A stretch of DNA of 64,000 bases from assembly GCF_058153355.1 (NCBI RefSeq), contig NZ_CM177019.1. The stretch is one strand, 5' to 3'. Below are positions 14,813-16,327 of the stretch, one piece after another. Below the pieces are notes generated by a model. It was not told the DNA's origin. It saw only the letters and a program-made list of their open reading frames with translations, and searched no databases. The first letter of the stretch is position 1; every line of letters begins with the position of its first letter. A program made the translations under genes and the position numbers.

Positions 14813-16327
14813 ATGCAACAGTCTACCCCGTATCTCTCATTTCGCGGCATCGGTAAAACGTTTCCCGGCGTTAAGGCGCTGACGGATATTAGTTTTGACT
14901 GCTATGCCGGTCAGGTTCATGCGTTGATGGGTGAAAATGGCGCAGGAAAATCAACTCTCTTAAAAATCCTCAGCGGCAACTATGCGCCAACCACGGGTTC
15001 TGTAGTGATTAATGGGCAGGAAATGTCCTTTTCCGACACAACCGCAGCACTTAACGCGGGTGTGGCGATTATTTACTAGGAACTGCATCTCGTGCCGGAA
15101 ATGACCGTCGCGGAAAACATCTATCTCGGCCAGCTGCCGCATAAAGGCGGCATTGTGAATCGCTCATTGCTGAATTATGAGGCGGGTTTACAACTTAAAC
15201 ATCTTGGTATGGATATTGACCCGGACACGCCGCTGAAATATCTCTCCATTGGTCAGTGGCAGATGGTTGAAATTGCCAAAGCGCTGGCGCGTAACGCCAA
15301 AATTATCGCCTTTGATGAGCCAACCAGCTCCCTCTCTGCCCGTGAAATCGACAATCTTTTCCGCGTTATTCGTGAACTGCGAAAAGAGGGGCGGGTGATC
15401 TTATACGTTTCTCACCGTATGGAAGAAATATTTGCCCTCAGCGATGCCATCACCGTCTTTAAAGATGGGCGTTATGTCAAAACCTTTACTGATATGCAGC
15501 AGGTTGACCACGACGCCCTGGTGCAGGCGATGGTCGGGCGCGACATCGGCGATATCTACGGTTGGCAACCGCGTAGTTATGGCGAGGAGCGGCTGCGTCT
15601 TGATGCTGTGAAAGCACCAGGCGTGCGTACGCCAATAAGTCTGGCGGTTCGCAGTGGAGAAATTGTCGGTCTGTTTGGTCTGGTCGGGGCAGGGCGTAGC
15701 GAATTAATGAAAGGCATGTTTGGCGGTACGCAAATCACCGCCGGTCAGGTTTATATCGACCAACGGCCGATTGATATTCGTAAACCGAGCCACGCTATTG
15801 CCGCAGGCATGATGCTCTGCCCGGAAGATCGCAAAGCGGAAGGCATTATTCCTGTGCACTCCGTTCGCGACAATATCAACATCAGTGCCAGACGCAAACA
15901 TGTGCTCGGCGGTTGTGTAATCAACAACGGTTGGGAAGAAAACAATGCCGATCACCACATTCGTTCGCTCAACATCAAAACGCCGGGCGCAGAGCAACTG
16001 ATCATGAATCTTTCAGGCGGAAATCAGCAAAAAGCCATTCTGGGCCGCTGGTTATCGGAAGAGATGAAGGTCATTTTGCTGGATGAACCTACGCGCGGCA
16101 TTGATGTTGGTGCTAAGCATGAAATTTACAACGTGATTTATGCGCTGGCAGCGCAGGGCGTGGCGGTGCTGTTTGCCTCCAGCGACTTACCCGAAGTCCT
16201 CGGCGTTGCCGACCGGATTGTGGTGATGCGGGAAGGCGAAATCGCCGGTGAATTGTTACACGAGCAGGCAGATGAGCGTCAGGCACTGAGCCTTGCGATG
16301 CCTAAAGTTAGCCAGGCAGTTGCCTGA
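14813..16327 (+). pseudogene. araG: L-arabinose ABC transporter ATP-binding protein interrupted by an in-frame TAG at 15077..15079
   Basis: ORFs 14768..15079 and 15092..16327 are in the same frame; reading through gives ...[16 protein letters not shown]... a contiguous two-cassette ABC ATPase. Confidence 0.8.

What the first reader, a model, noticed from the sequence alone, without database searches (positions are those of the whole stretch)
15077..15079. In-frame amber stop interrupts araG
The arabinose ABC transporter ATPase reading frame is continuous except for one TAG (context ATT ATT TAC TAG GAA CTG CAT, i.e. ...IIY*ELHLV...). Upstream 103 codons and downstream 411 codons are in the same frame and together make a normal two-cassette ABC ATPase. 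A single-base change at this codon (my memory of the K-12 protein has Gln here, i.e. CAG to TAG) would explain it. It predicts loss of high-affinity arabinose uptake unless suppressed; it could also be a sequencing error.
Basis: seen in the sequence. Interest (0 to 1): 0.45.

Follow-up and report, generated by a model that had tools for sequence, protein, structure and literature searches.

The report
Amber nonsense mutation inactivating araG
The ATPase gene of the high-affinity arabinose importer in this E. coli-like genome is knocked out by a real, inherited single-base change (CAG to TAG at codon 89), which is an ordinary lineage-specific pseudogene.

Summary
The TAG at 15077-15079 is real and lies in frame in araG (14813-16327, + strand, 504 codons). 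It replaces Gln89, the Q-loop glutamine of the first ATP-binding cassette. The nearest intact E. coli allele differs at 6 of 1515 bases. C265T is the only change that alters the protein. It is not a sequencing error. An independent NCBI assembly (1 SNP in 6 kb) and a Logan assembly (identical over 18.5 kb) carry the same TAG. The 88-residue fragment is on record from 198 contigs, including Shigella boydii 965-58. PGAP already labels the same mutation 'internal stop' in E. coli CFSAN061761.

The ancestral context CCAGG is a Dcm methylation site and the mutated base is its methylated cytosine. Deamination of 5-methylcytosine is therefore a plausible origin. My controls show that nonsense alleles at ten non-Dcm codons of araG also exist and also recur, so the population data do not prove a hotspot.

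araF and araH are still open. No amber-suppressor tRNA lies in the window. The predicted result is loss of high-affinity AraFGH uptake, with AraE uptake unaffected. Novelty and interest are low.

The parts
13748..14743 (+). araF, periplasmic arabinose-binding protein. The ORF is open at 331 aa instead of 329.
   Evidence: It has a 6-nt in-frame tandem duplication (see the 14494-14514 part) and three substitutions relative to the nearest reference.
14494..14514 (+). TATCGG tandem array of 3.5 copies. The nearest reference (L001) lacks these 6 bases, one TATCGG unit. The extra unit adds Gly-Ile to AraF.
   Evidence: Specific to this lineage: 5 contigs, and both places examined also carry the araG TAG.
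14759..14782 (+). G+C-rich inverted repeat (CCCCTCTGCAT/ATGCAGAGGGG) between araF and araG. It contains the spurious upstream ATG at 14768.
   Evidence: Read directly from the sequence. The repeat itself matches the reference; the araF-araG spacer differs at two bases outside it.
14813..16327 (+). araG pseudogene: 504 codons with a single internal stop at codon 89.
14813..15076 (+). The translatable N-terminal fragment, 88 codons. It holds Walker A of cassette 1 (residues 40-47) and nothing beyond the beta-strand that precedes the Q-loop.
15077..15079 (+). Amber codon TAG replacing CAG (Gln89, Q-loop glutamine of cassette 1).
15076..15080 (+). CTAGG, the mutated form of a Dcm site. The ancestral sequence is CCAGG and the changed base is the inner, methylated cytosine.
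   Evidence: Background on Dcm amber hotspots from PMC12606429.
15092..16327 (+). In-frame GTG-started ORF of 411 aa. AGGA at 15078-15081 lies 10 nt upstream. Any restart product would lack Walker A and the Q-loop of cassette 1.
   Evidence: Gene callers annotate this ORF separately in other assemblies. Restart itself is inferred, not shown.
16312..16316 (+). The second Dcm site in araG that could yield an amber codon (codon 501). It is intact (CCAGG) in the window.
   Evidence: Q501* alleles exist elsewhere.
16342..17328 (+). araH permease. It is intact and its protein is identical to the reference.

Best explanation
araG in this genome is a recent, lineage-specific pseudogene. One C-to-T transition at nucleotide 265 turned codon 89 (CAG, the Q-loop glutamine of the first ATP-binding cassette) into the amber codon TAG. 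Translation therefore ends after 88 residues. That removes everything after Walker A of cassette 1 and all of cassette 2. The AraFGH ABC importer has no working ATPase, and high-affinity L-arabinose uptake is lost. The low-affinity proton symporter AraE is encoded elsewhere and should still allow growth on arabinose. Shown here: the mutation, its inheritance in several assemblies, and the intact state of araF (with a small in-frame insertion) and araH. Inferred: loss of function. Also inferred: the origin by deamination of 5-methylcytosine at the Dcm site CCAGG that escaped very-short-patch repair. That origin fits the sequence context but is not proven.
For: TAG in frame at codon 89. The nearest intact allele differs at 6 nt, and C265T is the only change that alters the protein. 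K-12 and all but one of 5417 complete E. coli genomes that carry araG lack the T. The same TAG is in Logan SRR31441161 (100% identical over 18,540 nt) and in NCBI GCA_043012465.1 (1 SNP in 5,996 nt). Of the 41 reference genes that have a counterpart in the window, 37 align full length without gaps or internal stops, so the assembly is of good quality. Q89 aligns with the Q-loop glutamines Q475 and Q1118 of human ABCB1. The 88-aa fragment covers less than half of one ABC domain. Walker A of cassette 1 is the only canonical one. Cassette 2 has GAGRS and lacks the H-loop histidine, so a restart product from GTG 15092 would lack the consensus ATP site. No tRNA with a CUA anticodon is in the window. 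Ancestral CCAGG has become CTAGG at the methylated C. This is the same kind of change as the classic lacI amber hotspots (PMC12606429). The same change occurs on at least 4 local haplotypes that differ 8-37 nt from the site. For two of these (L002, L004) the closest intact allele is 1 nt away, and for L003 it is 2 nt away. The only other amber-capable Dcm site in araG (codon 501) is also found mutated to CTAGG on at least 3 haplotypes. The roles of AraFGH and AraE are taken from PMC8489885.
Against: No read-level data and no phenotype are available. The rest of the genome could hold an amber suppressor. The hotspot part is weak. Truncations at 10 non-Dcm transition-to-stop codons of araG are all on record too, at 28-148 contigs against 198 for Q89*. 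Q69*, a non-Dcm site, also sits on at least 3 haplotypes. Transitions at Dcm positions are not enriched in 18 kb around araG: 1 of 90 and 1 of 64, in both cases this site only. The dcm gene is outside the window, so methylation in this strain is assumed.
Confidence: 0.85

Rival explanations
1. The TAG is a sequencing or assembly error and the gene is really intact.
For: A single-base difference is the kind of thing an error could produce. I have no reads.
Against: The same base is in Logan SRR31441161 and in NCBI GCA_043012465.1, which differs from the window by 1 SNP elsewhere. 37 of the 41 reference genes with a counterpart in the window align without indels or internal stops. The identical mutation is on record from 198 contigs and is annotated 'internal stop' by PGAP in CFSAN061761.
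Confidence: 0.02
2. The amber codon is read through, either by a suppressor tRNA elsewhere in the genome or by near-cognate tRNA-Gln. Enough full-length AraG is then made for the transporter to work.
For: A Gln-inserting suppressor or near-cognate glnV misreading would restore the exact wild-type protein (established knowledge of supE and UAG misreading, not tested here). araF and araH are still open and araG carries no second lesion.
Against: None of the 7 tRNA genes in the window has a CUA anticodon. Efficient suppressors are rare in natural isolates and basal UAG readthrough is typically below about 1% (background knowledge). One of the 39 checked genes in the window ends in TAG. The absence of further decay is equally explained by a recent mutation.
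Confidence: 0.05
3. Translation restarts at GTG 15092 or ATG 15101 behind the AGGA at 15078-15081. The 411-aa product still powers AraH.
For: A Shine-Dalgarno-like AGGA lies 10 nt upstream of an in-frame GTG that is 13 nt past the stop. Gene callers predict this ORF.
Against: The product would lack Walker A (residues 40-47) and the Q-loop of cassette 1. Cassette 2 has a non-canonical Walker A (GAGRS) and no H-loop histidine, so the only consensus ATP site would be destroyed. This is inference from motifs.
Confidence: 0.02
4. The loss of araG is adaptive, not neutral decay. High-affinity arabinose import is selected against in some host-associated lineages, which would explain the repeated inactivation.
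For: Many independent lesions of araG are on record: Q89* on at least 4 haplotypes, a CGCG duplication in a related allele, 10 other nonsense alleles, and short AraG fragments that dominate in Shigella flexneri, S. sonnei and S. boydii records. This lineage also has an insertion in araF next to ligand-binding residues.
Against: With hundreds of thousands of sequenced E. coli, every possible transition is expected to appear repeatedly. Only 1 of 5426 complete genomes carries Q89*. No comparison with other non-essential genes was made. Some of the counted fragments are contig-end artefacts.
Confidence: 0.1

Closest known systems
araG (L-arabinose ABC transporter ATP-binding protein) of E. coli K-12, within the araFGH operon
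   Same: Same gene, same operon order araF-araG-araH, and same neighbours ftnB and otsBA. With Gln89 restored it gives a full-length match to NCBIfam NF008442.
   Different: Codon 89 is TAG instead of CAG, so the ORF is interrupted. The allele is 99.6% identical to the closest complete-genome allele.
araG 'internal stop' pseudogene of E. coli CFSAN061761 (NZ_CP042903, CA899_RS09475) and the 88-aa AraG fragment EIQ33233.1 of Shigella boydii 965-58
   Same: CFSAN061761 carries the identical C265T / Q89* mutation. The Shigella boydii 965-58 record is the identical 88-aa product.
   Different: CFSAN061761 has a different araG background, 36 nt away from the window and 1 nt from the K-12 allele. 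The flanking SNPs differ, so the origin is independent.
Dcm (CCWGG) 5-methylcytosine deamination hotspots, the classic lacI amber sites of Coulondre and Miller
   Same: The ancestral site is CCAGG, the change is C to T at the second C, and the result is CAG to TAG (PMC12606429).
   Different: Here it is a natural polymorphism, not a laboratory mutation spectrum. The roughly 10-fold excess seen in lacI is not visible in the contig counts (198 against a median near 58 for non-Dcm sites).

Membership tests
AraG (NCBIfam NF008442, L-arabinose ABC transporter ATP-binding protein) | Full-length match to the equivalog model above its curated cut-off | tested here: met
   938.6 bits against a cut-off of 689, residues 1-503, with Gln restored at codon 89.
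AraG (NCBIfam NF008442, L-arabinose ABC transporter ATP-binding protein) | Operon context araF-araG-araH | tested here: met
   araF 13748-14743, araG 14813-16327 and araH 16342-17328 are collinear with annotated E. coli loci. AraH matches NF008441.
AraG (NCBIfam NF008442, L-arabinose ABC transporter ATP-binding protein) | Two ABC cassettes with Walker A, Q-loop, signature and Walker B motifs | tested here: met
   Motif positions are listed. Q89 aligns with the ABCB1 Q-loop glutamines.
AraG (NCBIfam NF008442, L-arabinose ABC transporter ATP-binding protein) | Uninterrupted reading frame, i.e. a functional gene and not a pseudogene | tested here: not met
   TAG at codon 89. It is a member by descent but a pseudogene.
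Dcm-site 5-methylcytosine deamination mutation | Ancestral sequence is CCWGG and the change is C to T at the inner C | tested here: met
   CCAGG in intact alleles against CTAGG in the window.
Dcm-site 5-methylcytosine deamination mutation | The strain has an active Dcm methyltransferase | not testable with these tools
   dcm/vsr lies outside the 64-kb window, and no methylation data are available.
Dcm-site 5-methylcytosine deamination mutation | The site mutates more often than comparable non-Dcm sites | tested here: inconclusive
   Q89* is on 198 contigs and 287 index blocks. Ten non-Dcm nonsense alleles are on 28-148 contigs, and two of them on 181-212 blocks. Recurrence on several haplotypes is seen for both Dcm sites but also for non-Dcm Q69*. 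There is no local enrichment of transitions at Dcm positions.
Suppressed amber allele (functional through a suppressor tRNA) | A tRNA gene with a CUA anticodon | tested here: not met
   The 7 tRNAs in the window have anticodons GCC, GCA, TAA, CAT, TCT, TGT and TCC. The rest of the genome is not available.

The most novel reading that the evidence does not exclude
Repeated inactivation of araG, including Q89* at a methylation-prone site on several backgrounds and separate lesions in Shigella lineages, reflects positive selection against the high-affinity arabinose importer in some host-associated niches. On this reading the Dcm site acts as a mutational shortcut to that loss.
Probability: 0.08. 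Interest if true: 0.3.

Novelty: already known. Interest (0 to 1): 0.1.

Why it matters
It matters little beyond correct annotation. araG should be marked as a pseudogene (internal stop) in this genome. The strain is predicted to lack high-affinity arabinose uptake, which could shift its response to low arabinose concentrations, for example PBAD induction thresholds. It is also a tidy natural example of CAG to TAG at a Dcm site. My controls show that recurrence of such alleles in very large sequence collections is not in itself evidence for a hotspot or for selection.

Tried and rejected
1. I tried to find the source organism and genome. No complete E. coli RefSeq genome is identical (best 99.6% in araG and 96-98% over the 25 kb from 26001 to 51000). 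An exact 45-nt scan of GTDB species representatives gave 0 hits. The lineage was found only as Logan and NCBI draft assemblies.

2. I first read recurrence on several haplotypes as strong evidence for a Dcm hotspot. Controls at non-Dcm codons and the local polymorphism test showed it is not discriminating, so I downgraded the claim.

3. A single origin spread by recombination is unlikely. Four different flanking SNP combinations lie within 8-37 nt of the site.

4. Programmed recoding (pyrrolysine or programmed readthrough) was considered and dropped. The codon is CAG in essentially all relatives, and the allele is a rare derived state.

5. The literature search for araG pseudogenes was swamped by unrelated word matches and gave nothing useful.

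Full report
**Observation**

The window reads ...GCG ATT ATT TAC TAG GAA CTG CAT... with TAG at 15077-15079. Translating 14813-16327 (+) gives 504 codons with one internal stop at codon 89.

- The mechanical ORF list shows 14768-15079 (103 aa) and 15092-16327 (411 aa, GTG start).
- The 103-codon figure comes from an in-frame ATG inside the araF terminator hairpin.
- The annotated araG start in references corresponds to ATG 14813. The true fragments are therefore 88 codons, the stop, and 415 codons.

**Identity of the gene**

- With Gln restored, the protein matches the NCBIfam AraG equivalog NF008442 over its full length (938.6 bits, cut-off 689). The downstream ORF matches AraH NF008441.
- The neighbourhood glyW-cysT-leuZ, yecA, tyrP, ftnA, ftnB, araF, araG, araH, otsBA, uspC, flhDC, mot/che is collinear with annotated E. 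coli chromosomes.

**What changed**

- The closest complete-genome allele (NZ_CP098223) differs at 6 of 1515 nt. Five differences are synonymous and one is C265T, which gives Q89*.
- I ran a 45-nt megablast query centred on the T. Neither flank alone reaches the 28-nt seed, so a hit needs the T. It found only one of 5426 complete E. coli genomes, CFSAN061761, where PGAP annotates araG as a pseudogene with an 'internal stop'.
- K-12 MG1655 is 1 nt from that allele and carries CAG.

**Real or error**

- A Logan assembly of SRR31441161 is 100% identical to the window over 18,540 nt, including the TAG.
- NCBI assembly GCA_043012465.1 differs by one SNP in 5,996 nt and has the TAG.
- Of the 41 reference genes that have a counterpart in the window, 37 align end to end without gaps or internal stops. 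The sequence quality is therefore good.
- The exact 88-aa product is on record from 198 contigs and 287 index blocks. These include Shigella boydii 965-58 (EIQ33233.1) and many E. coli.
- A sequencing error is effectively excluded.

**Consequence for the protein** (inferred from motifs and homology)

- Q89 aligns with Q475 and Q1118 of human ABCB1, the Q-loop glutamines. Walker A K46 aligns with K433.
- The 88-aa fragment covers only profile positions 1-63 of 137 of one ABC domain.
- Cassette 1 has the canonical Walker A (GENGAGKS, residues 40-47) and an H-loop histidine. Cassette 2 has GAGRS and ASSD in the equivalent places.
- AGGA at 15078-15081 lies 10 nt upstream of the in-frame GTG at 15092, so some restart is conceivable. 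The 411-aa product would lack the only consensus ATP site.
- The ABC importer AraFGH should therefore be inactive. AraE, the lower-affinity proton symporter (140-320 micromolar; PMC8489885), is encoded elsewhere and is not affected.
- None of the seven tRNA genes in the window is an amber suppressor. The rest of the genome could not be examined.

**State of the operon**

- AraH is identical in protein to the reference.
- The araF-araG spacer has two substitutions outside its hairpin, the short araG-araH spacer is identical to the reference, and the region upstream of araF has no indels.
- AraF carries a 6-nt tandem duplication (TATCGG array at 14494-14514). It adds Gly-Ile five residues before Asn232 and Asp235 of the mature protein. 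From my memory of the arabinose-binding-protein structure these are ligand-binding residues.
- This AraF variant occurs on 5 contigs, and both places examined also carry the araG TAG.
- araG has no second lesion, so the inactivation is recent.

**Origin of the mutation**

- Intact alleles read TAC CAG GAA, which contains CCAGG, a Dcm site. The mutated base is the inner cytosine, which Dcm methylates. CCAGG to CTAGG is the change behind the classic lacI amber hotspots (PMC12606429).
- araG has four Dcm sites. Only two can yield a stop this way, at codons 89 and 501.
- I tested the prediction that codon 501 should also be found mutated. AraG(1-500) is on record in 58 index blocks, with CTAGG on at least three haplotypes.
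- Q89* occurs with four different combinations of flanking SNPs at nt 228, 243, 249 and 273. For two of these haplotypes (L002, L004) the nearest intact allele is 1 nt away; for L003 it is 2 nt and for the window 6 nt. The mutation therefore arose independently several times.

**Controls that temper the hotspot claim**

- Truncations at ten non-Dcm codons that a transition can turn into a stop are all on record as well. Contig counts are Q34* 31, Q69* 113, Q107* 75, Q127* 43, Q148* 148, W149* 62, Q150* 42, R190* 28, Q229* 57 and Q238* 59, against 198 for Q89*.
- Q69* is a true TAG on at least three haplotypes. Part of the Q148* count is contig-end artefact.
- In 18 kb and 13.5 kb alignments of the window with two relatives, transitions at Dcm positions are not enriched. 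The counts are 1 of 90 and 1 of 64, and in both cases the only hit is this site.
- The Dcm context makes 5-methylcytosine deamination a plausible origin. The population data show at most a modest excess. Recurrence in a collection of this size is not diagnostic.

**Wider picture**

- araG is often broken in nature. A related allele with the same C-terminal protein carries a CGCG duplication instead (L010 and L011).
- Very short or truncated AraG fragments dominate in records of Shigella flexneri, S. sonnei and S. boydii.
- I did not test whether this is neutral decay of a dispensable transporter or selection.

**Verdict**

This is an ordinary, real, lineage-specific nonsense pseudogene of araG. 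The same mutation is already annotated in public records. Novelty and interest are low.

Noticed in passing
window 14494-14514 (in araF): A 6-nt tandem duplication (TATCGG array of 3.5 copies; the nearest reference lacks one 6-nt unit) adds Gly-Ile to AraF. It lies five residues before Asn232 and Asp235 of the mature protein, which I recall from memory as ligand-binding residues. The variant is on only 5 contigs, and both places examined also carry the araG amber.
   Followed up: partly
window 36431-36433 (flhE, 36134-36526 +): A second nonsense mutation lies in the window. flhE codon 100 is TAA where the reference has GAA (a G-to-T change), which removes the last 31 residues. The 99-aa product is on 3 contigs of the same lineage, from SRR31441161 and SRR8656992.
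   Followed up: partly
window about 47600-64000: A lambdoid prophage (replicative helicase, Rha and Ash-type genes) lies next to yecE. Its integrase appears split into two ORFs (47647-48456 and 48392-48985, - strand) relative to a 437-aa integrase in strain AST85. A tRNA cluster Met(CAT)-Arg(TCT)-Thr(TGT)-Gly(TCC) sits at 63218-63528.
   Followed up: partly
L010:6645-6980 and L011:57-392: Two metagenome or SRA contigs have the same C-terminal AraG protein as the window but a different lesion. A 4-nt CGCG duplication near araG nt 243 shifts the frame, and codon 89 is still CAG.
   Followed up: yes
L012-L017 (araG nt 1500-1504); window 16312-16316 is intact: The other amber-capable Dcm site of araG (codon 501) is mutated from CCAGG to CTAGG in other E. 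coli on at least three haplotypes. This shortens AraG by four residues.
   Followed up: yes
protein clusters: Short AraG N-terminal fragments are very common in Shigella records: S. flexneri 33-37 aa on up to 1000 or more contigs, S. sonnei 216 aa on 936 contigs, and S. boydii 173 aa. This suggests independent disruption of araG in the Shigella lineages. Some entries are contig-end partials.
   Followed up: no
window about 13500-13540 (about 210-250 nt upstream of araF): A dense cluster of substitutions relative to the L001 and K-12-like alleles lies in the araFGH regulatory region, with no indels. I did not evaluate the effect on AraC or CRP binding.
   Followed up: no
window 8074-8268 compared with L032:41506-47535: Strain AST85 carries an island between leuZ and yecA with two DUF262 genes and an IS200/IS605 transposase. 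The window lacks this island. torZ is an 'internal stop' pseudogene in AST85 but is intact in the window at 42098-44527.
   Followed up: no
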